IMG/VR virus record: IMGVR_UViG_3300021405_000002
Source of the DNA: a virus
DNA: 45,533 nucleotides
Strand: one strand, 5' to 3'
A program made the translations under genes and the position numbers. Shown in pieces: positions 1 through 45,533 of this stretch. The notes below the pieces were generated by a model. It searched no databases. It was not told the origin of the DNA and worked only from the letters and a program-made list of their open reading frames with translations. Positions within the stretch are counted from its first letter, which is position 1. Every line of letters begins with the position of its first letter.

Positions 1-127
1 AGGAGAACGCGCGCGTCGCTCAGATGCGCGATATTTACATCCAAGGACTGACCAACCTCGATCAGGATCTCCAGGCGCTCGTGCCGCCTGAGCCAGATTG
101 GGACAAGGAATACGAAAAGGATCCGCT
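1..127. repeat. Terminal overlap, identical to 45407-45533 (circular-assembly signature)
   Basis: Direct comparison of the two window ends shows 127 identical bases. An open reading frame runs through the junction in frame. Confidence 0.95.
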
Positions 128-17678: not shown

Positions 17679-19151
17679 TTAGCGCGTAACTGCGCTGTCT
17701 TCAAGGGGCGCGGCGAGTTTTAATTTGCTGAAAACTGCCTCGTAAAGATCCTCTTTCTTCTGCAGCGCCTTGACCACGCGCCGATCGATGTCCGAGCCGG
17801 ATAGATCGATATAGAGCACGTTCTCGCCGCGCTGCCCGCGGCGGTGGATCCGGTCCTCGTCCTGCGTGCGCGTATCGAGGCTGTAGGAGCTTTCGAAAAA
17901 GATCATCGTCGAGCAATGGTCGCGCGCCGCCGCGCCTCCTAACAGCGTGTGTCCGTACTTGATCGCTTCGCTCTGGCCGAGCATGTGCCGGCACTCCGAA
18001 TCTTCGTTGAAACGGCGCTTTTGCTCCGTCACTTCAGCGGGCTTCATCTGCCCTTTGATGTAAGCTGGGAAATGCCCCTTGAGCGCCGTCGCGAGAATCT
18101 CGAACGTGTAGCGGTGTCGGTAGATGATGATCACCTTGCCCTCGATCTGAGCAAGCAGATCGAGCAAAACCGCCAGGCGCGGGTTCTTTTCCGGTTCGAC
18201 CAGAACGCGCGGATCCCCATTTTCGTTGAGGATAAAACCGCACTGGATCTGCGACAGTTTCTCGTATTTCGAAACAGCGATGTTGACCGCGACGATCTCA
18301 GTTTCCAACTCGAGAAGAAATTCATCCCGCATTTGTTTGTACTGGGCCGCTTGTTCGCCACTCATCTCATAAGTGCGAATGGTGAAATCTTTGCGCGGGA
18401 GCTCCGGAAGCCAGTCGGCTTTTTTGGCCTGGAAGATTACTGGGGCCATGATTCGCGCGAGCGTGTCGGCGTTTTTAACCCCTATGACTTGCTTGTTTTC
18501 CCAGCCGCCCATCTGACAAAAATTATTGCGAAACGCCCAGAATCGGACGCCCTGGAACAGCCCGATCGCACGCAATTGGGGATAGAGGTCATGTGGCCCC
18601 TGTGTTTGTGGCAATCCGCTCAGGCAACGGACGATCTTCGCCTCGAGGGCGAGTTTGAGCGTCGCCTTGGTTTGCTCACTGTCGTGCGTCTTGATCTGGA
18701 TTGATTCGTCGATCGCCAGCATCGTCGGCTTGACTCGCATCCAAGCCATCACGCGCAGGAGAACCGCCGGCATCCGCACCGCTTCGTAATTGATGACCAG
18801 GATCGGCGGAGCGCCGTATTTCGTCGTAGCGAACCAGTGATCGTTAGCTTTCGAGCCCGAAACATAGATGAATGGCTGGAAGGCCAGCCCGTGCTTGAGT
18901 ATCTCCTCAATCCAGCCAGGTTTAAACGAGTTGGGCGCAATCACCACTAAACGCGTGACAACTCGATTCTTCGCTGCGCAGTCGAACTCAGCCAAGGTTA
19001 GGAGCGTCTTGCCGAGCCCCATTTCCATGAAGTAGCCGACGCCGCGCTTGCCCTCGCCAAATCTCAGCGCCGCTTCCTGAACCGGATCAAGCTTCACCGT
19101 CTGATTCTCGCCAAGAACTCGTTTCGCTGTGCGTCCGTCGTCGTGAGCCAT
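17679..19151 (-). CDS. SNF2-family helicase
   Basis: MGLGKTL (motif I), DESIQIK (motif II) and DRIHRRGQ (motif VI). Confidence 0.85.
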   Translation of the reverse strand: MAHDDGRTAKRVLGENQTVKLDPVQEAALRFGEGKRGVGYFMEMGLGKTLLTLAEFDCAAKNRVVTRLVVIAPNSFKPGWIEEILKHGLAFQPFIYVSGSKANDHWFATTKYGAPPILVINYEAVRMPAVLLRVMAWMRVKPTMLAIDESIQIKTHDSEQTKATLKLALEAKIVRCLSGLPQTQGPHDLYPQLRAIGLFQGVRFWAFRNNFCQMGGWENKQVIGVKNADTLARIMAPVIFQAKKADWLPELPRKDFTIRTYEMSGEQAAQYKQMRDEFLLELETEIVAVNIAVSKYEKLSQIQCGFILNENGDPRVLVEPEKNPRLAVLLDLLAQIEGKVIIIYRHRYTFEILATALKGHFPAYIKGQMKPAEVTEQKRRFNEDSECRHMLGQSEAIKYGHTLLGGAAARDHCSTMIFFESSYSLDTRTQDEDRIHRRGQRGENVLYIDLSGSDIDRRVVKALQKKEDLYEAVFSKLKLAAPLEDSAVTR

Positions 19152-22138: not shown

Positions 22139-22314
22139 GGCGCGGGCCGCCAGACAACGGGCGAATCCAGAAGCTTGCGCAGCGCTTCGCGGTCCACTGG
22201 ATCGGAAATCTCGGCAAGCCACTGGCAAGTGAGGCAGCGTTTACGCACCTGGCCAAGCGCGTCGTAAACGGGACAGCCGCAATCGACGCAGATGAAGGTG
22301 GGTTCGTCGCTCAT
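22135..22314 (-). CDS. 59-aa zinc-ribbon protein, absent from the ORF track
   Basis: Hand translation: MSDEPTFICVDCGCPVYDALGQVRKRCLTCQWLAEISDPVDREALRKLLDSPVVWRPAP. ATGA overlaps at both ends. Confidence 0.55.
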   Translation of the reverse strand: MSDEPTFICVDCGCPVYDALGQVRKRCLTCQWLAEISDPVDREALRKLLDSPVVWRPAP

Positions 22315-22904
22315 GGCTTCAACAGAAGTCCGAGCGCAGTTTGCAGCGCTCTCGAGGCTTGCAGGATGTGAAACTGAATGAAGTACGGATTGTAGTCGCC
22401 AACCTCGGCAAGTTCCCTTGCTCCCTCGGCGTGCTCGATCACGGCGTCGAGTGCCTCAGACATCACGTCGCGCTTGCCTGGGATCATCGCTTGCTTGAGA
22501 TCCGGCCGCTCGTGCTCCTCGATCGCCTGAATGACGACTTGGCATTCGGAGTCTACGACTGCGGGATGATCGCCAGCGGCTTTCGGATACTCGCTCATCG
22601 GCTCGACGCTGGGTGCGAAGAAAGCGTCTTGGAGATATTTGCGAAGCGCTTCAGTCGGGATCGGCTTCGACGTCGGCCGCAGCGTGCGCAGATGCGGATC
22701 CGACATGCGGGCAATGAAAGCTCTGCCCAAGTCGGGCACGAACTTGTCGTCGAAATTGCCGCCGCCAGGATGGCTGCAGGGGGCGTAAAAGGCCGCGCCT
22801 GGCGAGGCAACCGCATAGCCAAACTCGAGCCGCTGGAAGGCGATCAGCGGCGCTTTGCGCACCAGGTCAAGAAACCCACTATCGTCGATCTTGGGAAGAA
22901 TCAT
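22311..22904 (-). CDS. Hypothetical protein
   Basis: 197-aa ORF with good codon bias. Confidence 0.6.
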   Translation of the reverse strand: MILPKIDDSGFLDLVRKAPLIAFQRLEFGYAVASPGAAFYAPCSHPGGGNFDDKFVPDLGRAFIARMSDPHLRTLRPTSKPIPTEALRKYLQDAFFAPSVEPMSEYPKAAGDHPAVVDSECQVVIQAIEEHERPDLKQAMIPGKRDVMSEALDAVIEHAEGARELAEVGDYNPYFIQFHILQASRALQTALGLLLKP

Positions 22905-23063: not shown

Positions 23064-24023
23064 CTAGAACGGGATATCGTCGTCGACAACGCCGGACTCA
23101 CCTCTGGTTTCGACTGGGCGAGCGCCACGTTCCGACATTGCGTCGCGGGGGGATGATGCACGACGCACTGTCGCCTCCCCATCGACGTCCTCGTCCTCGT
23201 CCGCCGTGGCGAAAGCGACGTTCTTCCACTGGTCGAACAGCGGCTCGGTGATCGCGGAAAGGGCCGGATCGGTGTAGCCGTCGCCGCGATATTTGTAGCC
23301 GAAGTAGGCTTCGCCGGTGGGCCCGCGGTTCTGCACCGCGACGACCTTGTAGCGCTGGAAGAACGGACTGAGCGGCCGCGCGTCGACCATGGCGAACAGC
23401 TTGCGCGCCTCTTTCACGCCCGATCGCGTGTTCAAGGTCAGCGCCAAAGTGTTCCACTCAGGCAGGAACCAGAGCACCTCGAAGGTCAGCGTCGCCGCCG
23501 GCGGGCTCGAGGGATCGTCGATGCGGCTCGAGCCAAACTCAGCCAAGCCCGATTCCTTGACCGTGCGCGCGAGCTTCCAAGTGTAAGTCTTGGGGTTCAT
23601 CGGGTAACGCACATGGAACTCGCCTTCCGGCGGATCCCAATGGATGAAGTCGCGGGCGCGGGCGAGAATGCCACGATCCTCGCCAGGCGAGCGCGGTGCC
23701 CAAAGGTTGTACGTCTGTCGGCGCATGATCGGCACGCCGATGAACTCAGGCCCAAGCGATTCGGTCAGCGTCGTGTGCCAGAATTCGCCCGCGCGGGCTT
23801 CGCCGGGATAATCGACGCATTCGGGGTTCGACGCCTGGAGGAGCTTGATGCGCGGCAGCATCCGCTGACGCGGATCGATTTCGCCCCAGCTTTCCACCTT
23901 TTGCTTCCCTTGCAGATGCGCCGGCAGCGCGTTTTTGCTGACCGGCGTGACATCGTTGACCATGACTGTCTTGCCTTCCCTGATCGTGTAGCGAGGCTTG
24001 GTCGCAGCGGTCGCGGCGCTCAT
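23064..24023 (-). CDS. Putative ssDNA-binding/recombination protein with bacterial SSB C-terminal tip
   Basis: The 319-aa protein ends in an acidic tail ...DEDEDVDGE...GVVDDDIPF. DDDIPF is the canonical SSB C-terminal peptide. The N-terminal body does not look like a classical SSB OB start. Confidence 0.5.
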   Translation of the reverse strand: MSAATAATKPRYTIREGKTVMVNDVTPVSKNALPAHLQGKQKVESWGEIDPRQRMLPRIKLLQASNPECVDYPGEARAGEFWHTTLTESLGPEFIGVPIMRRQTYNLWAPRSPGEDRGILARARDFIHWDPPEGEFHVRYPMNPKTYTWKLARTVKESGLAEFGSSRIDDPSSPPAATLTFEVLWFLPEWNTLALTLNTRSGVKEARKLFAMVDARPLSPFFQRYKVVAVQNRGPTGEAYFGYKYRGDGYTDPALSAITEPLFDQWKNVAFATADEDEDVDGEATVRRASSPRDAMSERGARPVETRGESGVVDDDIPF

Positions 24024-24514
24024 TTCGACCTCGTCAGCGACACATAGCGGGCGACAGACGTCTTGAAGACGTCGTCGGGCGGCTCTTTGCCCTTGTCCTC
24101 AGTTTCGCTGCGCGCCCATGCGCCCAGAGTTAAGGCGTTGATCGTCTCGATGATCATGCCGCCCTGTCCATTGTCGCGCAGGTATTTATAGCCCTTGGGC
24201 TTATCGAGGATTGAGCACGACCAACGGCGGTTAAGGCCGACGAGTCCATAACCGGGGATTCGGATGTTCTGGATTCCGTGCGCGTCGAAGCAGGCCGGGA
24301 CGCGCGTGTAGGAGAGATCTTTGTCGAGCTTATTAAGCTCAGAGATCGTCGACGCCATCGATTCGAGTTCTTCACGCATGTCGGCGTAGAACCTGACGAG
24401 ATCAGGGGCTTCGTTGACGCTGATGGCGGATTCGGCTTCTGCAAAGAGGGCGGCGCGGGCCGTTTCGAGCGCCTTTTTCGCCGCTTCACAGGCGGCTTGA
24501 GTCTCGGGTTTCAT
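24020..24514 (-). CDS. Hypothetical protein, N-terminal coiled coil (Gam/Gp157-like architecture, tentative)
   Basis: ATG at 24514 with GGAG upstream. ATGA overlap with the downstream gene. Confidence 0.45.
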   Translation of the reverse strand: MKPETQAACEAAKKALETARAALFAEAESAISVNEAPDLVRFYADMREELESMASTISELNKLDKDLSYTRVPACFDAHGIQNIRIPGYGLVGLNRRWSCSILDKPKGYKYLRDNGQGGMIIETINALTLGAWARSETEDKGKEPPDDVFKTSVARYVSLTRSK

Positions 24515-24571
24515 TGCTATCGTTGCTCCATGTTGCGGGGCTTCGCCGGCTTTCACGGCGTCGCAAGGCGC

Positions 24572-24599
24572 AACATATCGCTCGATAGAACAATGTCAA
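24572..24599 (-). promoter_or_regulatory. Sigma70-like promoter (TTGACA-16 nt-TATGTT), leftward
   Basis: The minus strand reads TTGACAttgttctatcgagcgaTATGTT in the 24515-24621 intergenic gap. Confidence 0.5.
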
Positions 24600-24621: not shown

Positions 24622-25350
24622 TCAGGATCGATTAAAAAGCCTGGATAAGTCGAGCGCCGTTGCCTGGCGGCCAAAACCGCTCGGGCCGTAACGCGACAAC
24701 GCGCCGCCTGACCAATCCTGATTTTGTGCGGCGATCGGGACAAAGGGCGAGTTGCCAGGCGCGGGTGCAAGCGCCGTTGCGCTGCCTGGGATCCGCGCGC
24801 CCGCTGGCCTATTCGAGCCTCGCGCCACGGCAGGGTTCGATACTGGCCGCGGCCGCGGCGGCGGCAGCGGAGCGGCAACGGCCGGATAAGCATCCGGCGT
24901 TACACCTCGGGCTTGCGGCAGAATGGACGGTCCAGGCGGCATTGGCGGCCCCATGACCGGCATCACGCCACGCGCTTGCGGCAGGATCGAAGGTCCGATC
25001 GGCGGGCTAGCGCCAGCACCGCCTGAACTTCCGCCCACAACCTGACCAGGCACCGGCGGAGTCGGAGCGCCTGGCGGCATCGGCGCGGGCGGTTGACCTC
25101 CGCTCACCAAGCCCGGAGGCACCGGCGGACCGCCGCCGGCGAGCGCCGCGGGCACCGGCGAAGGATTGTTGAGCGGATTGCCGTTGTTGCTCAGCGTGTC
25201 CGCCGCCGCCGGCTGCACCGGGTTGGCGTAATTCATGCTGCGCATGATCGAGGCTTGCGTCGCGGCTGGAAGGCCAGCGAGCCAAGACATAAAGCCGCCC
25301 TGGTCGCCGGTGCCGGAGTCAGGCGTATCGCCGGGAGCAAAGACCGCCAT
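24622..25350 (-). CDS. Proline-rich low-complexity protein
   Basis: 242 aa with high third-position GC in this frame and an internal repeat GPSILPQARGV(M/T)P x2. Confidence 0.6.
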   Translation of the reverse strand: MAVFAPGDTPDSGTGDQGGFMSWLAGLPAATQASIMRSMNYANPVQPAAADTLSNNGNPLNNPSPVPAALAGGGPPVPPGLVSGGQPPAPMPPGAPTPPVPGQVVGGSSGGAGASPPIGPSILPQARGVMPVMGPPMPPGPSILPQARGVTPDAYPAVAAPLPPPRPRPVSNPAVARGSNRPAGARIPGSATALAPAPGNSPFVPIAAQNQDWSGGALSRYGPSGFGRQATALDLSRLFNRS

Positions 25351-27121: not shown

Positions 27122-27624
27122 CAGTAGTTGTCTCCTCGAAGAAAGCCGCCTCGACCTGGCACGCAATTGCAATAGGGCCAGTTATTTTGCGCGCCGCTTT
27201 GCTCGCCAAGCGCCTGGCCTAGCCCTTGGAAGTTTAACTGTTGCTGCGCAAGCGCCCGATTTTGCTGCACCTGAGCTTGCTGCGCGTGAGCCTGACTTTG
27301 CAGCATCATGCGCTGGCGCATCTCCTCAGTGATCTGATGATACGGCAGTGGATTCATCGCCGCTTGCGCATGGTCTTGCTGACGCAAGCGATGCGCTGCA
27401 TCCGCGCGATCGCGCCAGGCGTGAGCGATCTCTCGCCAACCGTCGATATCCCCTCGGACGTGCTCAAGCTGGCGCTCGAGGTCATCGATGCGCGCCTTGA
27501 GCTCAGCGATCTCCGCGTTGGGCTTGATCGAAGAGAGAAGCTCCTTCGATGAGGAGTCGCTCGAAGTTTGCCGCTTCGCGACTGGGATCATCGCTAGGAG
27601 TGCTAGAGTCGACATCAAACCCAT
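27121..27624 (-). CDS. N-terminally anchored coiled-coil, Gln-rich protein
   Basis: Strong RBS GGAGGAGG 6 nt before the ATG at 27624. N-terminus MSTLALLAMIPVA, then AEIAELKARIDDLERQLEH. Confidence 0.6.
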   Translation of the reverse strand: MGLMSTLALLAMIPVAKRQTSSDSSSKELLSSIKPNAEIAELKARIDDLERQLEHVRGDIDGWREIAHAWRDRADAAHRLRQQDHAQAAMNPLPYHQITEEMRQRMMLQSQAHAQQAQVQQNRALAQQQLNFQGLGQALGEQSGAQNNWPYCNCVPGRGGFLRGDNY

Positions 27625-28222
27625 TTTTGTCCTCCTCCCGCCAGCTTATGCGTGACGCGGTGAACAGTCCATCCTGATTTTTCTCCGGAAAGAAACAAAA
27701 CCAGCCAAACGGCATCGCGCCTTGCTTCAGCTTTTTACCCTTCCAGCCAGGCCTGTGCATCATCGGCAGTCGTTCGACGCCGATAAAGACATGGTGCAAA
27801 TGTTGCATGATGTCGGAGCGGCCCGCGCCCTCAAGCGCCATCAGCCGCAGGAGCACATAGACCGGCAGACCAAGCTTGAGCCCGTGGCGAATGAAAGCGT
27901 CGGCCCAGCGGTAAGGCGGATTGGTCACAATCGCCTGGAGGTAGGTCACATTGCAGGATTTGAAAAAATCGATGCCGGTCTGGATCTCCGAATCGCGCCC
28001 TGCATAATCGACCAAGTCGTGGCTGATCACGCGCCAGCCGCCAGCCAGGAGCTCCCGCGAAATCGCGCCGCGGCCGGCGCACGGTTCGAAGAGTACGCGA
28101 TAAAGGTCGAGGGCTCCGGTGCGAATCAGCGCGCGCGTCGCTTCCGGCGGCGTTTCACGCAAATCGTAGGCGCGGTCTTTGAACTTGCCCTTAACCGCGC
28201 CCTGTCGCGATTTCGCTTTCAA
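27503..28222 (-). CDS. SAM-dependent DNA methyltransferase (NPPY; N6-adenine or N4-cytosine)
   Basis: FEPCAGRGAISREL (motif I) and IVTNPPY (motif IV). The proposed TTG start at 28222 overlaps the upstream TGA (TTGA). The ORF track allows extension to 28306. Confidence 0.75.
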   Translation of the reverse strand: MKAKSRQGAVKGKFKDRAYDLRETPPEATRALIRTGALDLYRVLFEPCAGRGAISRELLAGGWRVISHDLVDYAGRDSEIQTGIDFFKSCNVTYLQAIVTNPPYRWADAFIRHGLKLGLPVYVLLRLMALEGAGRSDIMQHLHHVFIGVERLPMMHRPGWKGKKLKQGAMPFGWFCFFPEKNQDGLFTASRISWREEDKNGFDVDSSTPSDDPSREAANFERLLIEGASLFDQAQRGDR

Positions 28223-28395
28223 TTGACTCGCCCCAGCGGTTCCTTGAGTTCCTCGAGGATGACCGCAACCAGCTTGATCAGCGCTTCTTCCGGCGGGCAC
28301 ACGCACGCAACCGGCTCATCCGCTTCGAAAATGACCAGGCTTAAGCGGCCGCAGTTCTCGCAGCGCGCGACCGACAGTCCGTTGCCTTCAATCAT
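28219..28395 (-). CDS. 58-aa Cys-cluster (zinc-ribbon-like) protein, absent from the ORF track
   Basis: Hand translation: MIEGNGLSVARCENCGRLSLVIFEADEPVACVCPPEEALIKLVAVILEELKEPLGRVN. ATGA overlap upstream and TTGA downstream. Confidence 0.5.
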   Translation of the reverse strand: MIEGNGLSVARCENCGRLSLVIFEADEPVACVCPPEEALIKLVAVILEELKEPLGRVN

Positions 28396-28508
28396 TTGCA
28401 GCGCTCAATCACGTAAATGATTACGCCTAGAATTACGCAAAACTCGCCGATAGACCAGCTAAGCTGATCAAGATTCGTCGTCCAAGTCGGCGGCGAATGC
28501 TCAATCAT
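28392..28508 (-). CDS. 38-aa single-TM micro-protein, absent from the ORF track
   Basis: Hand translation: MIEHSPPTWTTNLDQLSWSIGEFCVILGVIIYVIERCK. ATGA overlaps at both ends. Confidence 0.4.
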   Translation of the reverse strand: MIEHSPPTWTTNLDQLSWSIGEFCVILGVIIYVIERCK

Positions 28509-29230
28509 GCCGCCATCCTATCGACAAAGGCTTGGGCTTCGCGCCAGTCGTTTTGATTGCGCCCTTGCCGCCTGGCTGAATAACTCCACGCCATGCTGTC
28601 AGCCGATTCGAGGCAATCGCGGATCGCTTTGACGCTAAGACTTGTGGTCTTGAGGCCAAACCCGTGTAATCGAAGATCAGGACGCGCATCGAGGATAGCC
28701 TCTAGAACAGCCAGAACAGCCCCAGGATTGCCGTTGCGCTTACAGACGCTGCCGACGCCCACATAAGCGCCCTTGGCCAGTCTTGAGCCATAAGCGAGGA
28801 CGTGAGCTCCGTAATCGGGGGGCGCGTAGCCTTGCAGAACCGGCATAATGGCGATCCCGCCAGTATCGAGGGCGACGAGCGCGTCGTAACGCTCGATCGT
28901 CAACCGCTGATGCTCAGCAATCGTCAAACCTGTCTTGGCCAGCATCGCCGGCTCGCACATGTAATCCTGAGCGACCGCGGTGATGAGATTAGGCGCAGCC
29001 CATTTGCGAATCATCTCAGCATAAACCTCGACCGGCTCGGGATAGCCGCCATGCTTAGCAATCGTGGTGAATGCGCCCGAATCCATGATCCAGGGCTGGT
29101 CAGTAAACTTGCTCTTGCGCCCCTTGGGTCCGATTAGCGTTGAGACACTGACGAACACCGGGCCCAGGTGCTTGGCGTCGGAAGGATGGTGGACGCCGAC
29201 ATAGAATTTCACTTGCCGCGGCCTTTCCAC
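28505..29230 (-). CDS. dpdA: DpdA-like DNA transglycosylase (TGT superfamily)
   Basis: Motifs MDSGAF, GVGSVCKR, LHGFGLK and DSMAWS, in the order I recall for phage/bacterial DpdA. An alternative GTG start at 29212 forms a GTGA overlap with the primase stop. Confidence 0.6.
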   Translation of the reverse strand: MERPRQVKFYVGVHHPSDAKHLGPVFVSVSTLIGPKGRKSKFTDQPWIMDSGAFTTIAKHGGYPEPVEVYAEMIRKWAAPNLITAVAQDYMCEPAMLAKTGLTIAEHQRLTIERYDALVALDTGGIAIMPVLQGYAPPDYGAHVLAYGSRLAKGAYVGVGSVCKRNGNPGAVLAVLEAILDARPDLRLHGFGLKTTSLSVKAIRDCLESADSMAWSYSARRQGRNQNDWREAQAFVDRMAA

Positions 29231-31770
29231 GGTTCCATCGCATCGCCCTCGCGCCAGTCGTTGGGCATGTCGTCATTGGGCTCGAGCTCCCAATGCGAGC
29301 GCAGCGGAACGCCGAGAACCTGGCTGAATAAGCGTTGTAACGCGCCGATCTTGTACTTGAACAAATACTCGCCGTTGGCGAGACTTTCTAATAAGCCGGC
29401 ATGAGTGTAGAGCGCCAAAACGGCATCGGCCAAAACAGGTTGCCGAAATCCCATATCCTTGCATGCTTTTCTGACACGCTGCGTGATGTGAAACGAGCGG
29501 AAAGGCATAGCAATATCGAACCCGCTGTGAATCGTGCCGTTTTCGAGAATTTCTTTGGCGACGAGTTGAGTCGGCGTCAGTTGCTCCGCCGCAACGTCGG
29601 CGTCGCGCACCGCAGAATGAGTCAAGTCTTCCACTTGTGCGATATCGTCAGGCGCGCAGTCAATCAAAAGCTTGACGTAAGCCTGGCGCACGTCATCGCG
29701 CTTCAAAAAGGCGGCGTAATCCCGGTAGAACGGTTTCGCCTCTCGGTTCATACGGTCTTGGAATTCGCCAGGCAAAAGGCCTTCGCTCGTTGCGGTGATT
29801 GACGTCACCTGGAAAATTCCGCGATCTGCGCCCCTCGAAAGACCAGGATTGGGCTCATTCGATGTGAAGGCCAATCGAGCAAAGGTTATGTGCGTTGTTG
29901 GATTTTGGTTTTTAAATTCGCCAGAAATTTTGGTCGAACGGATCAGGTCTTTTATCGTTTCAATGACTTCCGACTTCGAGACAACTTCGTCGTGATTGAC
30001 CCAAAGTCTATCCACGTAATTTGGAATGTAGAACTGGCTCTCAAACGCTTTCATGCTCCCTTTGCCGGCATAATTGCCAAACACAGCTTCCGCAAAATCC
30101 TGGCAGAGAAAAGTCTTCCCGGTGCTCTGATCGCCGGTGCAGACAAGCGCGACTTGTTGTTTTTTGCCGGGATGTTTCAGCGTCCAGCCAAAATGCGCCT
30201 TAATCCATTCCATACGCCCTTTGTGGTTCTTGGTGACAAGGCTTAGCATGTGATCAAGCTTGTCGATGCACTCAGCCTTGAGCGCCTCATCGATTGTCTT
30301 CGCCGGCAGAATGTAAAGGCCAGCCCATTTATTGAAGATCAGGCGCGAATGCGGCGGCGCGTAATCATTGTCAGGAACGATTACGCCTTGGCGAGTCACA
30401 CGAACAATGGAGCCAGGCGGATAATCGGGATGAATCTCAACGTCGGTGACATCCTGACGGAGCTTCGACTTGATGAAGATTGGAAACGCTTCGACTGGCT
30501 TTTTCTTGGTTTGAATCAAGTCGGGCGCATGGCGAAGCGTCAAGCTCTCGCGAGTGAAGATGAATTGCGCCTGGCCTTCGCGAAAGGCTTGGCGGTCTAT
30601 AAATGCGCCCTCGCCCAGATGGAACAGATACCGCTCCGCGAAGTCTTCAAGCAGGGTTGAATCTGCGCCGACGTTGAGAACCGTGCGCAGCGCCTTGCGC
30701 GCTTCGTCGCCAAAGAAATTGCCGATTCCGGTCCAGCCCATGACGTCGAGGCGCGCAGGATCGGCGTCGAGGCGCTTGCGAGCGAATTGGAACATCTCCA
30801 GGCATTCCTCGCGATCCGCCGGCTTGCCGCGCTGCTGACAAATGTGTTCGAGCAAAAGCTCAGCGTGCGAGGGATCCGCGATGATCGCGCGCGAGGCGCG
30901 CGAGAACACGACATTGGCGTTGATCGCCTGGCCGTCCCGGACGATGCGCGCCATGAGCTCGGAGAACGCGCGCCGCTTCGAATAGTCCTCCCAGGCTTTC
31001 TGGCTGACGATGTTGAGAATCGACGCGAACGCTGCAGCGCGGACAATCTGAAAGAACTCGACCGGCGCAGCCCCTGTTCGCCAGCGTGCAGCGGGCCCCT
31101 GGCCGCTCTCCGCGCGCCAGGTGATCAGATCATAGTCGACGCCGTTCTCGTGCCACAGGAGGCTTCCTGGCGCGATCGTCGTGACCACATGCGCGTTCGA
31201 GCCTTTCTTGATCGCCGGCGCGTAATTGATGGCGATGCCGCGGCGCGTGTCCTCGAGCGTGAACGCCTTGGGCTTGAAGCCGGAATATTCCTCGTCCAGG
31301 CGTTTCGCTTCGTCGTCGCGGAGCTTGAACAGGATCGACGTCGCAATCGGCTTCGAAGCGCGGCCAAACGCATAGCGCGACGTGATCCCAAGCCTGGCGC
31401 ATGCGGCGAAGAAACACTCGTTGATCGATTGATCCGGACCAAAGAAGCGAACTTCGACGACGCCGTTCTGCAGATAGGCGAGCGCGTTGAGCTTCTGCTT
31501 GCGGTCGTTGTCAATCCAAACGCGAAGATCGTCGTCGGTCTGATGAAGCTTCTCGTCCTCGTCGGGCGGCAGCGGCTTATCCGCGCGCGGCAAGCAATAA
31601 TGAACCGGAGCCATGAGTTGACGCGCCGCGAGCACGGTGAGCTCGCGCTGATCCATGACGGTTTTCTTCTGATCAGCCGGTAAATCCAACGTCCAATCGA
31701 CGTCGGGCACGAGTTGCACGACAGAACCATCGGGCTTAGGCTGTTTAGGCATGGCCCAGCCTCGGTCCAT
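29209..31770 (-). CDS. Primase / SF3 (D5/P4-type) replicative helicase
   Basis: 853 aa. Walker A TGDQSTGKTF and Walker B RLWVNHDEV lie in the C-terminal half, with a large N-terminal domain. An alternative ATG at 31752 has GAGG upstream. Confidence 0.7.
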   Translation of the reverse strand: MDRGWAMPKQPKPDGSVVQLVPDVDWTLDLPADQKKTVMDQRELTVLAARQLMAPVHYCLPRADKPLPPDEDEKLHQTDDDLRVWIDNDRKQKLNALAYLQNGVVEVRFFGPDQSINECFFAACARLGITSRYAFGRASKPIATSILFKLRDDEAKRLDEEYSGFKPKAFTLEDTRRGIAINYAPAIKKGSNAHVVTTIAPGSLLWHENGVDYDLITWRAESGQGPAARWRTGAAPVEFFQIVRAAAFASILNIVSQKAWEDYSKRRAFSELMARIVRDGQAINANVVFSRASRAIIADPSHAELLLEHICQQRGKPADREECLEMFQFARKRLDADPARLDVMGWTGIGNFFGDEARKALRTVLNVGADSTLLEDFAERYLFHLGEGAFIDRQAFREGQAQFIFTRESLTLRHAPDLIQTKKKPVEAFPIFIKSKLRQDVTDVEIHPDYPPGSIVRVTRQGVIVPDNDYAPPHSRLIFNKWAGLYILPAKTIDEALKAECIDKLDHMLSLVTKNHKGRMEWIKAHFGWTLKHPGKKQQVALVCTGDQSTGKTFLCQDFAEAVFGNYAGKGSMKAFESQFYIPNYVDRLWVNHDEVVSKSEVIETIKDLIRSTKISGEFKNQNPTTHITFARLAFTSNEPNPGLSRGADRGIFQVTSITATSEGLLPGEFQDRMNREAKPFYRDYAAFLKRDDVRQAYVKLLIDCAPDDIAQVEDLTHSAVRDADVAAEQLTPTQLVAKEILENGTIHSGFDIAMPFRSFHITQRVRKACKDMGFRQPVLADAVLALYTHAGLLESLANGEYLFKYKIGALQRLFSQVLGVPLRSHWELEPNDDMPNDWREGDAMEPWKGRGK

Positions 31771-37008: not shown

Positions 37009-37097
37009 ATTTAAACACATCCGCCTTGGTCTAATCGCTATTGCGGAAACGCAGAAGGCCCCCCTCGAGGTTTTCTGATTTGGGGCCCCGGGCGCAC

Positions 37098-37126
37098 TTA
37101 AGTCATGCCTCGGAATGTGTTAAACT
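37098..37126 (+). promoter_or_regulatory. Possible rightward promoter (TTAAGT-17 nt-TAAACT), 7 nt before the ATG at 37134
   Basis: Hexamers read from the sequence. The spacing implies a leaderless or near-leaderless transcript. Confidence 0.3.
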
Positions 37127-37133
37127 ATACCAC

Positions 37134-37523
37134 ATGACAAACTGTGAATACTGCGAACGGATCTTTAATGCCAGTCTTCACGAGTTGTTTTGCAGTAATC
37201 GCTGCTGTACGGCTTTTTCGCGTGAGAGGGATCTTGCGGAGAGGTTGGAGGCGTTATCAATTCCGGAGCCAAATAGCGGCTGCAAATTGTGGTTGGGCCA
37301 ATTAAATTCGAGGGGTTACGGGCAACTTCGCATCAGGAGAAAGTTTCGAAGAGTTCATCAAGTTGCTTACGAGCTTGCGAAGGGGCCTATTCCGCCAGGC
37401 AAGATGATTTGTCATCGCTGTGATGTACAGATCTGTATAGAGGCTAATCATCTTTACGCTGGAACAGCGAAGACCAACTTTGACGACATGGTGCGCAGGG
37501 GGCGCTATAAACCGCCTCCATGA
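37134..37523 (+). CDS. HNH endonuclease (HNH_3-like)
   Basis: CKLWLGQLNSRGYGQL...RRVHQVAYEL...ICHRCDVQICIEANHLYAGTAKTNFDD. Confidence 0.75.
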   Translation: MTNCEYCERIFNASLHELFCSNRCCTAFSRERDLAERLEALSIPEPNSGCKLWLGQLNSRGYGQLRIRRKFRRVHQVAYELAKGPIPPGKMICHRCDVQICIEANHLYAGTAKTNFDDMVRRGRYKPPP

Positions 37524-41462: not shown

Positions 41463-41825
41463 GTGGACATCCTCGATCGTCATGCCGACAAGTGGGAGCC
41501 TCTGACTGAGGTTGGATGCTACCTGTGGACGGGTGCCGTCGCGGGCGCTCCGGTTTTGCGTCCGCAAGTCACGATCGGGAGCATGGTCGATAGGACGCGC
41601 AGAACCGTGTATGTTTCACGGTTAGTTTGCGAAGAATTTCACGGACCGCCTCCGACGCCGCGGCATCAGGCTTTGCACAATACGCCGAATGGCTGCATTG
41701 GCGGCCTTTGTGTTGCGCCCCATCATTTGCGTTGGGGAACTAGTCGAGAAAATCACGCTGACGTTCATCCTCAAGCGCGCTCGGATCGCTCAAGGCGATC
41801 TTGGGTAAGTCGACGTCTGGTATAG
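41463..41825 (+). CDS. HNH endonuclease (second copy, HNH_3-like)
   Basis: GCYLWTGAV...RLVCEEFHG...ALHNTPNGCIGGLCVAPHHLRWGTSRENHAD. GTG start. Confidence 0.65.
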   Translation: MDILDRHADKWEPLTEVGCYLWTGAVAGAPVLRPQVTIGSMVDRTRRTVYVSRLVCEEFHGPPPTPRHQALHNTPNGCIGGLCVAPHHLRWGTSRENHADVHPQARSDRSRRSWVSRRLV

Positions 41826-44825: not shown

Positions 44826-45533
44826 TAGCGCCGCGCAAGCGTTTGAGCGCGCGATCGATCCGGCTCAGACGCAGAGCGAGGGAACGCCGCGCGCGCCCGC
44901 GCCGCGGGATACGAGCGGCCGTTTCGCCCAGGTCGCGGAGAAGCCCGAACCATTTCTCGAGATCCGGACGATCGAAGGCGATCCGGAGACGGGAGACACG
45001 AACGACGCGGGAGACGATCCTCGCCTCCGTGCTCGAGAGAGGGAGATAGCCGATGGTCGGTTTGACGAGAGGGCGCACCGCGAAAGTCAATCACGCGCCC
45101 GACAAGCGCCCACCGAAACTGAAAGGCAGAGTGGCGAACGACGTAGCCCCGACGCCCCGGTCAGCGATGATGCCGCCGCCGACGATGGACACTTGCGAGC
45201 CGATGATGAGTCGCAAGACGCCGAAGCCGACGCCGCCGGCGATGAAGAGAGTGAAGACGGCGATCTCGAAAACGCCCAGTTCGAAATCACGGTCGACGGC
45301 GAGCCTCAAACCGTATCGCTAGGCGAGCTCCGTGACGGCTACATTCGGACGGCGACGTTCCATTCGCGGCTGAACAAGGTCAACGAGCACAAGCAAGCGG
45401 TCGACCAGGAGAACGCGCGCGTCGCTCAGATGCGCGATATTTACATCCAAGGACTGACCAACCTCGATCAGGATCTCCAGGCGCTCGTGCCGCCTGAGCC
45501 AGATTGGGACAAGGAATACGAAAAGGATCCGCT
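44809..45533 (+). CDS. Scaffolding protein, 5' part (continues at 3..617 after the junction)
   Basis: Hand translation from the ATG at 44809 (MPEGLDSAAQAFERAID...) stays open to the window end and joins the frame of 24..617. It is not in the ORF track because no stop lies inside the window end. Confidence 0.6.
   Translation, partial: MPEGLDSAAQAFERAIDPAQTQSEGTPRAPAPRDTSGRFAQVAEKPEPFLEIRTIEGDPETGDTNDAGDDPRLRAREREIADGRFDERAHRESQSRARQAPTETERQSGERRSPDAPVSDDAAADDGHLRADDESQDAEADAAGDEESEDGDLENAQFEITVDGEPQTVSLGELRDGYIRTATFHSRLNKVNEHKQAVDQENARVAQMRDIYIQGLTNLDQDLQALVPPEPDWDKEYEKDP
45407..45533. repeat. Terminal overlap, identical to 1-127
   Basis: Direct comparison. Confidence 0.95.

What the first reader, a model, noticed from the sequence alone, without database searches (positions are those of the whole stretch)
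23064..24023. 319-aa protein with the bacterial SSB C-terminal tip (DDDIPF) but no classical OB-fold SSB N-terminus
The protein ends in a long acidic linker and the exact hexapeptide DDDIPF. Bacterial SSBs use this peptide to recruit partner proteins such as PriA, RecO, ExoI and the chi subunit. The ~270-aa body (e.g. LPRIKLLQASNPEC..., FEVLWFLPEWNTLALTLN...) does not resemble the usual SSB N-terminus. It sits downstream of a strong promoter and a coiled-coil protein, in a genome with no DNA polymerase. It may therefore be a novel ssDNA-binding or annealing protein, or a decoy, that plugs into host replisome and repair factors through SSB-tip mimicry.
Basis: partly seen in the sequence, partly recalled or inferred. 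Interest (0 to 1): 0.62.

Follow-up and report, generated by a model that had tools for sequence, protein, structure and literature searches.

The report
Phage SSB-like protein with host tip

Summary
It encodes 319 aa ending in DDDIPF.

The body is Pfam PF23977 (Pam3_Gp34, function unknown). This is a very large phage family (2,621 cluster representatives). The gene is paired with a DUF7307 gene in all 18 loci examined.

- **Tail:** 98% of 130 representatives end in a hydrophobic residue (82% F/Y/W) after an acidic disordered tail. In close relatives the tip is more conserved (0.89) than the folded core (0.77).
- **Fold:** the confident AlphaFold core matches only the phiC31 gp3 directionality factor in the PDB. 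The TG1 homologue of gp3 binds ssDNA. The match is borderline, and sequence profiles show no homology.
- **Genome:** it is complete (45.4 kb), with no polymerase or other SSB detected.
- **New here:** sister phages have K-F/K-Y tips and a family-A polymerase immediately downstream. This clade has DDDIPF, a longer tail, and a conserved 197-aa dead remnant of that polymerase's exonuclease domain.

Best reading (about 0.55): a non-canonical phage SSB that plugs into the host SSB interactome. No binding has been tested. The tip/polymerase link is one evolutionary event and has counter-examples. This scan reached the same SSB reading for this family on five other genomes.

The parts
23064..24023 (-). 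CDS of the 319-aa Pam3_Gp34-family protein (P0001). Its ATG overlaps the stop of the upstream gene (ATGA, 24020-24023).
   Evidence: Pfam PF23977, E=5.2e-19, 69.5 bits against a cut-off of 27, residues 31-255.
23214..23933 (-). Folded beta-rich core (residues 31-270). Carries the family's invariant residues, including P57, K60, F81, W129, G164 and P175-A176-A177.
   Evidence: AF2 pLDDT is mostly above 90 over residues 60-270. Invariant columns. Foldseek matches 9teh_I (phiC31 gp3) at E=5.5e-3, prob 0.99, and 36 BFVD phage proteins at E<1e-3.
23085..23213 (-). Disordered linker (residues 271-313). Starts with an acidic block (ADEDEDVDGE), followed by a variable stretch with a semi-conserved SERGARP motif.
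   Evidence: pLDDT below 50 from residue 276. Column identity 0.43-0.59. Net charge -7 for residues 271-285.
23067..23084 (-). C-terminal tip DDDIPF (residues 314-319), identical to the bacterial SSB-Ct hexapeptide. Followed by stop codon TAG at 23064-23066.
   Evidence: Column identity 0.89 in 42 close clusters, of which 21 end exactly DDDIPF.
24020..24556 (-). Partner gene, DUF7307 (Pam3 gp33-like). Homologues suggest the real start is the ATG at 24514. Modelled as a helical hairpin plus an alpha/beta domain.
   Evidence: PF23984, E=1.8e-20. Adjacent to a PF23977 gene in the window and in all 17 other loci examined. AF2 pLDDT 89.4. No PDB fold match.
24572..24599 (-). Sigma-70-like promoter match (TTGACA-16-TATGTT) in front of the DUF7307/PF23977 gene pair.
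   Evidence: consensus match only; 1 found against 0.4 expected.
22311..22904 (-). 197-aa remnant of a family-A DNA polymerase N-terminal (3'-5' exonuclease) domain, at the position where sister phages have the full PolA. The Exo I Asp/Glu pair is not retained.
   Evidence: tblastn of relatives' PolA hits 22518-22871. blastp alignment. hhalign probability 96.3%, E=1.6e-9 against PolA residues 4-185. Kept at full length in 16 clade loci including the window, at 53-76% identity.
29209..31770 (-). 853-aa DUF5906 (D5/SF3-type) primase-helicase. Head of the same leftward replication module.
   Evidence: PF19263, E=2.7e-10. phrog_1156 'DNA primase'. 28% identical over 826 aa to the L010 orthologue.
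17679..19151 (-). 490-aa SNF2-family helicase. Such a helicase accompanies the DUF7307/PF23977 pair in many phages.
   Evidence: PF00176 and PF00271. phrog_62. A helicase lies next to the pair in Pam3, phiVC8, YuA, S12-1, WFC and ZP6.

Best explanation
The gene encodes the phage's own single-stranded-DNA-binding protein (possibly also annealing). It is built on a non-canonical fold, family PF23977, not on the bacterial SSB OB domain.

- **Architecture.** It has three parts, as T4 gp32 and T7 gp2.5 do:
  - a short conserved N-terminal peptide (ALPAHLQGK);
  - a beta-rich core that would hold ssDNA;
  - a disordered acidic tail whose last residues dock partner proteins.
- **Expression.** It is co-translated with a fixed partner (DUF7307) from an early or middle promoter. 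It acts in the module that also holds the primase-helicase and an SNF2 helicase.
- **Lineage history.** In this lineage the phage family-A polymerase has been reduced to a dead 197-aa exonuclease-domain stub. The tail has been lengthened and its tip changed from K-F/K-Y to the host hexapeptide DDDIPF.
- **Proposed mechanism.** The protein coats phage ssDNA at forks opened by the phage helicase. Its tip recruits host SSB clients, for example Pol III via chi, DnaG, PriA, RecQ/RecO and ExoI. Host enzymes then copy and repair phage DNA.

**Shown here:**
- family membership;
- tail disorder and selection on the tip;
- synteny;
- polymerase loss and its remnant;
- absence of a recognisable SSB elsewhere in the genome.

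**Inferred:**
- ssDNA binding;
- which partners bind the tip;
- use of host Pol III.
For: 1. **Tail.** It is disordered, acidic and ends in exact DDDIPF. The tip is under stronger constraint than the core (0.89 against 0.77; linker 0.43).
2. **Family-wide pattern.** 128 of 130 representatives end in a hydrophobic residue (107 aromatic). 96% of 189 members have a net-negative last 40 residues. This is the hallmark shared by bacterial SSB, T7 gp2.5 (ends ...EDGDF) and other replisome SSBs.
3. **Fold.**
   - The only PDB match with high probability is phiC31 gp3 (9teh_I, E=5.5e-3, prob 0.99).
   - Its TG1 homologue binds ssDNA but not dsDNA in EMSA and has a predicted gp32-like OB fold (PMC11795197).
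   - Weak hits to SsbA/SsbB and to the PRD1 P12 SSB follow.
   - A phage protein annotated 'RDF' appears among the BFVD matches.
4. **Context.**
   - In 11 related loci the order is DUF5906 primase-helicase, DUF7307, PF23977, then PolA directly downstream where present.
   - In PB1-like phage S12-1 and in WFC the pair sits beside the phage DnaE and a helicase. In ZP6 it sits beside an SF2 helicase and PolA.
5. **Complementarity.** Seven of seven complete phage genomes carrying PF23977 lack a PF00436 SSB. The window has no other SSB-like gene.
6. **Tip and polymerase.**
   - Six sister loci with K-[FY] tips all have PolA.
   - The window, L012, L015 and L016 have DDDIPF with no PolA in the stretches read.
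   - Four further near-complete relatives have no PolA anywhere on the contig.
   - The PolA stub shows the loss was real.
7. **Coupling.** The ATGA start/stop overlap with DUF7307 indicates coupled expression.
Against: - **No binding data.** None exist for any PF23977 member, and no paper mentions the family.
- **Fold link is modest.** TM-scores are 0.33/0.45 with rmsd 8.5 Å.
- **No sequence homology to known SSBs.** Profile-profile comparison with the gp3 family gives 0.4% probability. There is no PDB sequence hit. The zinc site of gp3/gp32 is absent, since the family has no conserved Cys. T7 gp2.5, N4 SSB and gp3 are not family members.
- **A second SSB in one phage.** phiVC8 carries an atypical 'ssDNA binding protein' right next to its PF23977 gene, so the family need not be the sole SSB.
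- **Tip/polymerase link is one event.** All PolA-less members form one clade (99/93 support). OH (GEIPF) and Pam3 (DDPPF) have IPF/PPF-type tips and a PolA.
- **Some tips are buried.** Three close clusters extend five residues beyond DDDIPF. This would bury the terminal carboxylate that SSB-Ct pockets read.
- **Open questions.** The host is unknown. The 853-aa primase-helicase could itself polymerise.
Confidence: 0.55

Rival explanations
1. It is a recombination protein and not the replisome SSB. The DUF7307/PF23977 pair, with the SNF2-type helicase, would form a strand-annealing or fork-remodelling module. In it the PF23977 protein anneals or hands over ssDNA, and its tail competes with or mimics host SSB at recombination intermediates. 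T7 gp2.5 shows that SSB and annealing roles can coexist, so this overlaps the main reading.
For: - The gene pair is invariably linked, and an SF2/SNF2 helicase often lies beside it in very different phages.
- YuA has an 'exonuclease V'-like gene directly downstream.
- phiVC8 has a separate SSB-like gene next to the pair.
- Annotators labelled the partner 'host-nuclease inhibitor / Gam-like'.
Against: - No Pfam, PHROG or fold match to RecT, Redbeta, Erf, Sak or Rad52.
- The 'Gam-like' label has no support from Pfam or from the PDB fold search.
- Known annealing proteins bind the SSB tail and do not carry it (the portability work on SSAP and SSB-Ct, from my own knowledge).
- The gene sits directly upstream of the polymerase in sister phages.
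Confidence: 0.2
2. It is a tail-bearing adaptor or decoy without ssDNA binding. The core would bind a phage protein (DUF7307, helicase or primase). The DDDIPF tip would either tether that complex to host SSB-client enzymes or titrate those clients (for example ExoI, RecQ, RecJ) away from phage DNA.
For: - In other phages of this scan the same tip was reported on clamps, helicases and small proteins that are not SSBs. These are unchecked notes (e1-1998904, e1-3293556, e1-3442382).
- Evidence for a DNA-binding fold is only borderline.
- The core is near neutral in charge (median net 0).
Against: - Most family members end in K-F, K-Y, E-Y and similar tips, not the host hexapeptide. Host-client titration therefore cannot be the family's general function.
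- The core is rich in invariant aromatic and basic residues.
- The fold matches a protein family with demonstrated ssDNA binding.
Confidence: 0.15
3. The tip serves phage partners only. The tail would dock on the conserved 197-aa polymerase stub, the primase-helicase or the SNF2 helicase, as the T7 gp2.5 tail docks on gp5 and gp4. The identity to host SSB-Ct would then be convergence without host recruitment.
For: - The stub is conserved at full length in every clade member examined, so it has kept some function.
- OH and Pam3 have IPF/PPF tips and still own a PolA.
- In T7 the acidic tail ending in F binds phage proteins (established knowledge; papers listed, not read here).
Against: - An exact DDDIPF, held in 21 of 42 clusters with only conservative variants in the others, is the host consensus and not merely acidic-plus-aromatic.
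- It appears on the same branch as the loss of the phage polymerase.
Confidence: 0.1

Closest known systems
Pfam PF23977 (Pam3_Gp34; Pseudanabaena phage Pam3 gp34-like protein, function unknown)
   Same: The window protein is a member (69.5 bits against a cut-off of 27). It has the same length class, the same DUF7307 partner upstream, and the same acidic tail with a terminal aromatic residue (Pam3 gp34 ends ...EDDPPF).
   Different: It belongs to a divergent subgroup. Its tail is about 35 residues longer, the tip is exactly DDDIPF, and the neighbouring polymerase has been lost.
phiC31 gp3 / TG1 gp25 (Pfam PF18897 Gp3-like): recombination directionality factors. TG1 gp25 is a functional phage SSB (PMC11795197); structure 9teh chain I.
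   Same: This is the best and only confident PDB fold match. Both are roughly 25-30 kDa beta-rich phage proteins encoded among replication genes. Both carry a flexible terminal peptide proposed to dock partners.
   Different: - There is no detectable sequence homology.
- gp3 has a Cys/His zinc site and an N-terminal docking peptide. It has no acidic C-terminal tail and ends ...YNDAIAD.
- No serine integrase was found among the window ORFs scanned.
Bacterial SSB (PF00436) and its C-terminal tip SSB-Ct (E. coli ...MDFDDDIPF)
   Same: An identical last six residues, preceded by a disordered linker. The tip is the hub peptide for chi, PriA, RecQ, RecO, ExoI, DnaG and others (established knowledge).
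   Different: The body does not match PF00436. The core is about 240 residues, against roughly 110 for the bacterial OB domain. Oligomeric state is unknown.
T7 gp2.5 (PF21265) and Enc34 ORF6 / DUF2815 (PF10991) phage SSBs
   Same: A phage SSB of about 230-280 aa with an acidic tail ending in Phe that contacts the phage family-A polymerase. In sister phages the gene lies next to the polymerase.
   Different: There is no Pfam match, and neither appears among the top 50 Foldseek PDB matches. No PF10991 match was found in five genomes carrying PF23977, but that search's own controls were silent, so the absence is not informative.
T4 gp32
   Same: The same three-part layout: an N-terminal conserved peptide, a DNA-binding core and an acidic C-terminal protein-interaction domain. 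gp32 is the structural reference for the gp3/TG1 RDF fold.
   Different: No zinc site and no sequence similarity. gp32 did not appear among the Foldseek hits listed.

Membership tests
Pfam PF23977 Pam3_Gp34 | HMM score above the gathering threshold (27 bits) | tested here: met
   69.5 bits, E=5.2e-19, residues 31-255 matching model positions 4-218 of 235.
Pfam PF23977 Pam3_Gp34 | Adjacent DUF7307 (PF23984) partner gene upstream | tested here: met
   Window 24020-24556, E=1.8e-20. The same pairing occurs in OH, Pam3, phiVC8 and ten metagenomic loci.
Bacterial SSB (PF00436) | N-terminal OB domain matching the SSB HMM | tested here: not met
   No PF00436 hit at E<=1. PDB sequence searches with the protein and with the family profile found no SSB.
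Bacterial SSB (PF00436) | Disordered linker ending in an acidic tip with C-terminal Phe (D-D-D-I-P-F) | tested here: met
Bacterial SSB (PF00436) | High-affinity ssDNA binding; homotetramer | not testable with these tools
   Needs EMSA or fluorescence titration, and SEC-MALS.
phiC31 gp3 / TG1 gp25 (PF18897 Gp3-like) | HMM or profile-level sequence homology | tested here: not met
   No PF18897 hit. hhalign of 189 against 120 sequences gives probability 0.4%.
phiC31 gp3 / TG1 gp25 (PF18897 Gp3-like) | Shared three-dimensional fold | tested here: inconclusive
   Foldseek 9teh_I: E=5.5e-3, prob 0.99, but TM 0.33/0.45 and rmsd 8.5 Å over 252 columns.
phiC31 gp3 / TG1 gp25 (PF18897 Gp3-like) | Cys/His zinc site in the core | tested here: not met
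   No conserved Cys among the invariant or near-invariant columns; only H83. gp3 has HHC...CGC.
phiC31 gp3 / TG1 gp25 (PF18897 Gp3-like) | Partner serine integrase (RDF role) | tested here: not met
   No recombinase hit among the larger window ORFs scanned. The smallest ORFs were not scanned.
T7 gp2.5-like SSB (PF21265 / PF10991) | HMM match to the gp2.5 or Enc34 OB domain | tested here: not met
   No hit. The control, T7 gp2.5 itself, scores 1.1e-89.
T7 gp2.5-like SSB (PF21265 / PF10991) | Acidic C-terminal tail with terminal aromatic residue | tested here: met
Rad52-like annealing proteins (Redbeta, RecT, Erf, Sak) | HMM or fold match to an SSAP family | tested here: not met
   No Pfam or PHROG hit. 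None among the top 50 Foldseek PDB matches.

The most novel reading that the evidence does not exclude
PF23977 is a major, unrecognised class of phage replisome SSB. Its C-terminal tip acts as an evolvable address label. In this lineage, loss of the phage family-A polymerase (perhaps a DpoZ-type enzyme, since related PolA-bearing phages carry PurZ) was accompanied by re-addressing the SSB tail from the phage polymerase (K-F/K-Y tip) to the host SSB interactome (DDDIPF). The dead exonuclease stub was kept as an adaptor. The case would capture a phage in the act of switching from its own replisome to the host's.
Probability: 0.25. Interest if true: 0.8.

Novelty: new variant of a known kind. Interest (0 to 1): 0.55.

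Why it matters
- **Annotation gap.** If PF23977 proteins are SSBs, a gap closes for thousands of phages. These include PB1-like, YuA-like and Wifcevirus phages studied as therapy candidates, and Z-genome podophages. All are annotated 'hypothetical' here and seem to lack an SSB.
- **Phage defence.** Phage SSBs are triggers of several bacterial defence systems (Retron-Eco8, DARNA, DRT4; preprint titles and abstracts). An unrecognised SSB class therefore bears on predicting phage sensitivity.
- **A natural experiment.** Sister phages differ in owning a polymerase and in the tip of this one protein. This makes it directly testable how a polymerase-less phage recruits the host replisome, and whether six residues are enough to do it.
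- **A domesticated fragment.** The conserved dead polymerase stub is a rare, clear example of a replicase gene reduced to a retained fragment.

Tried and rejected
- **Plus strand.** The plus-strand reading of the stated coordinates is full of stops.
- **PDB by sequence.** Searches with the protein and with a 29-sequence profile found nothing meaningful.
- **Profile-profile comparison with the gp3 family.**
  - The first alignment gave an 8-residue 'IHWD' match.
  - A low-stringency run gave a different, inconsistent register.
  - Both were rejected as noise.
- **NCBIfam.** No hits for the protein, its partner or the stub.
- **Bacterial genomes.** No relative in 185,579 species genomes, so there is no prophage or host clue. 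One IMG/VR relative is labelled 'provirus', but its ends are phage-like with no host flank.
- **'Gam-like / host-nuclease inhibitor' label of the partner gene.** Pfam gives no Mu Gam hit for four orthologues. A confident model has no PDB fold match, best E about 1. The label is unsupported and the partner's function is left open.
- **N4 SSB as a possible characterised relative.** It is not a family member and ends in a basic tail.
- **General rule 'host-type tip means no phage polymerase'.** Rejected, because OH and Pam3 have IPF/PPF tips and a PolA. The tree shows the PolA-less group is a single clade.
- **First structure and representative-search jobs.** I rebuilt the alignment without it.
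Full report
**Observation.**

The ORF at 23064-24023 exists, but on the minus strand. The plus-strand frame is closed. It encodes 319 aa (P0001) ending ...RGESGVVDDDIPF, followed by TAG. Its ATG overlaps the stop codon of the upstream gene (ATGA at 24020-24023), which suggests coupled translation. A sigma-70-like site (TTGACA-16-TATGTT, 10/12) lies upstream of that gene at 24599-24572.

**The genome.**

- The window has identical 127-bp ends, so it is a circular assembly of a complete genome of 45,406 bp at 60% GC.
- It is a podophage-type genome with an SU10-like major capsid protein and portal, and a large terminase.
- A leftward early arm holds:
  - an 853-aa DUF5906 primase-helicase;
  - DpdA;
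  - a methyltransferase-like protein;
  - the gene pair studied here;
  - an SNF2-family helicase.
- Pfam and PHROG scans of the larger ORFs found no DNA polymerase and no recognisable SSB.
- tblastn with three relatives' family-A polymerases found only a short remnant.

**Family.**

The body (residues 31-255) matches Pfam PF23977, 'Pam3_Gp34', a family without assigned function (E=5e-19). The upstream gene is PF23984/DUF7307, 'Pam3 gp33-like'. No paper in the library mentions either family.

- A profile search of 1.84 billion cluster representatives found 2,621 members at E<=1e-3 and 782 at E<=1e-10.
- tblastn found members in 202 isolated phage records. They include:
  - Pseudomonas YuA/M6-like phages and PB1-like phages;
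  - E. coli Wifcevirus;
  - Vibrio VP2/phiVC8;
  - Serratia, Burkholderia, Xanthomonas and Alteromonas phages;
  - Pam3.
- Nearly all listed records annotate the gene as 'hypothetical protein'.
- The nearest isolate is Ochrobactrum phage OH p26 (42% identity). It ends ...KDGEIPF.

**The tail is a selected feature.**

- AlphaFold2, with a 29-sequence alignment, gives a confident core (pLDDT mostly above 90 over residues 60-270). Residues 276-319 are disordered.
- Among 42 close clusters (at least about 54% identity):
  - 37 end in [IL][PV]F, and 21 of these end exactly DDDIPF;
  - 3 run five residues past DDDIPF;
  - 2 are truncated or frameshifted.
- Column identity is 0.89 for the last six residues, 0.77 for the core and 0.43 for the linker.
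- Across 130 full-length representatives of the whole family, the last residue is F 57, Y 49, W 1, V/I/L/M 21 and other 2. Only 19 have the bacterial-type I/V/L-P-F.
- 96% of 189 members have a net-negative last 40 residues.
- An acidic, disordered tail with a terminal hydrophobic, usually aromatic, residue is therefore a defining trait of the family. The exact host hexapeptide is a speciality of this subgroup.

**Fold.**

- Foldseek against the PDB gives one confident match: chain I of 9teh, the phiC31 integrase-RDF (gp3) fusion (E=5.5e-3, prob 0.99, TM 0.33/0.45). It is followed by low-probability hits to Bacillus and Staphylococcus SsbA/SsbB and to the PRD1 P12 SSB.
- Against BFVD there are 36 hits at E<1e-3. 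All but one are unnamed or uncharacterised phage proteins. The exception is annotated 'recombination directionality factor'.
- PMC11795197 reports that the TG1 homologue of gp3 has a predicted OB fold with a zinc site like T4 gp32. It binds ssDNA but not dsDNA in EMSA, and it sits among replication genes.
- The best structural relative is thus a demonstrated phage SSB family.
- The link is fold-level only:
  - hhalign of deep profiles gives 0.4% probability;
  - PDB sequence searches are empty;
  - PF23977 has no conserved cysteine for a zinc site;
  - gp3 lacks the acidic tail.
- T7 gp2.5, N4 SSB and gp3 are not PF23977 members.

**Context.**

- The DUF7307/PF23977 pair is adjacent in the window and in all 17 other loci examined.
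- An SF2/SNF2 helicase lies beside or near it in Pam3, phiVC8, YuA, S12-1, WFC and ZP6.
- In S12-1 and WFC the phage DnaE polymerase lies just upstream.
- Seven of seven complete phage genomes with PF23977 have no PF00436 SSB.
- The exception to 'sole SSB' is phiVC8. It has an atypical, non-PF00436 'ssDNA binding protein' directly downstream, itself containing DFDDDIPF. A weak counterpart occurs in ZP6, but none in the window.
- The DUF7307 partner models confidently (pLDDT 89) as a long helical hairpin plus a small alpha/beta domain. It has no PDB fold match. The 'Gam-like host-nuclease inhibitor' label used in two GenBank records is therefore unsupported.

**New in this window: polymerase loss and tip change.**

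In related podophage contigs with the same gene order, the tip and the polymerase status are as follows.

| Group | Loci | Tip of the PF23977 protein | PolA |
|---|---|---|---|
| Sister loci | L007, L009, L010, L011, L013, L014 | KSKF, KSKY, SGKF, SDKF, EDKF, NTKF | 594-623 aa, immediately downstream |
| This clade | window, L012, L015, L016 | DDDIPF, on a tail about 35 residues longer | none in the stretches read |
| This clade | L008 | DEINF | none in the stretch read |

- Four further relatives of 89-99% completeness have no PolA anywhere on the contig, while the OH control is detected.
- At the PolA position the window has a 197-aa ORF (22311-22904). It is homologous to the first 185 or so residues of those polymerases, the 3'-5' exonuclease domain (hhalign 96.3%, E=1.6e-9; blastp and tblastn).
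- In that ORF the Exo I Asp is replaced by Gln, the Glu falls in a deletion, and the Exo II region is deleted.
- This stub is kept at full length (53-76% identity) in all 16 clade loci including the window. It therefore has some retained, non-catalytic function.
- A maximum-likelihood tree places all PolA-less members in one clade (99/93 support), nested inside the K-[FY]/PolA group.
- Polymerase loss, tail lengthening and the tip change thus map to one lineage. This is suggestive but is a single event.
- OH (GEIPF) and Pam3 (DDPPF) combine IPF/PPF tips with a PolA. Tip type is therefore not a simple function of polymerase ownership.
- Several PolA-bearing relatives also carry PurZ-like adenylosuccinate synthetase and an HD phosphohydrolase, the Z-genome signature. 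The window lacks these and has DpdA.
- From my own knowledge, DpdA-type modification is post-replicative. That would be compatible with replication by a host polymerase.

**Interpretation.**

The most economical reading is that PF23977 proteins are replisome or recombination ssDNA-binding proteins of a non-canonical sequence family. Their tail docks partner proteins as the tails of bacterial SSB, T7 gp2.5 and T4 gp32 do.

In this polymerase-less clade the tip has become the host SSB-Ct. This would let phage-coated ssDNA recruit host SSB clients such as Pol III chi, DnaG, PriA, RecQ/RecO and ExoI. The client list comes from established knowledge; none was tested here.

| Reading | Probability |
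|---|---|
| Non-canonical phage SSB that docks host SSB clients | about 0.55 |
| Primarily recombination or annealing | about 0.2 |
| Adaptor or decoy without DNA binding | about 0.15 |
| Tip addressed only to phage partners | about 0.1 |

None of these can be separated without biochemistry.

**Earlier notes of this scan.**

Five earlier reports on other genomes reached the same 'likely SSB, gp3-like fold, fixed partner gene' reading for PF23977. Other reports describe DDDIPF tips on non-SSB phage proteins. I reached my reading before seeing them and do not count them as evidence. What is added here:
- the exact host tip;
- the quantified selection on the tip;
- the tip/polymerase contrast between sister phages;
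- the polymerase stub.

Noticed in passing
window 22311-22904 (-): A 197-aa ORF is a conserved, catalytically dead remnant of the N-terminal 3'-5' exonuclease domain of the family-A polymerase that sister phages carry at this position. It is kept at full length in all 16 clade loci including the window.
   Followed up: yes
window 1-127 and 45407-45533: The first and last 127 bases are identical. This is a circular assembly overlap, so the window is a complete genome of 45,406 bp.
   Followed up: yes
L016 4085-5023; proteins P0023, P0025, P0027: Three close homologue clusters read five residues past the tip (DDDIPFTYEWR or DDDIPFMYEWR). This would bury the terminal carboxylate. It may be natural stop-codon loss or an assembly variant.
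   Followed up: partly
L006 6820-7335 (Vibrio phage phiVC8 p31): The annotated 'ssDNA binding protein' next to phiVC8's PF23977 gene has no Pfam hit. It contains DFDDDIPF 16 residues before its annotated end. This may be a mis-called stop or frameshift, or a second tailed protein.
   Followed up: partly
L010 14231-16669, L011 14308-16518, L013 9891-10940, L001 16161-18326: PolA-bearing relatives carry PurZ-like adenylosuccinate synthetase, mostly with an HD phosphohydrolase or (in OH) a nucleotidase gene. This is the 2-aminoadenine (Z-genome) signature. The window lacks them and carries DpdA (28505-29230) and a methyltransferase-like gene (27503-28306).
   Followed up: partly
window 37041-37523 (+) and 41463-41825 (+): Two HNH endonuclease genes lie just upstream of the terminase genes and of the portal gene.
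   Followed up: no
window 24622-25350 (-): A 242-aa Pro/Gly/Ala-rich low-complexity protein lies directly upstream of the promoter of the gene pair. It has no family hit. The equivalent ORF in L013 has a weak PEP-CTERM match.
   Followed up: no
window 23214-24023 (-), residues 32-40 of P0001: A short N-terminal peptide (ALPAHLQGK; P34 is invariant across the family) precedes the folded core in a region of lower confidence. It may be a second linear motif for cooperativity or partner binding, like the gp32 N-terminal domain.
   Followed up: no
window 23085-23150 (-), residues 292-312 of P0001: Inside the otherwise variable linker, a semi-conserved stretch (P292, SERGARP, G308, G311, V312) is shared by the DDDIPF clade. 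It may be an additional docking motif.
   Followed up: no
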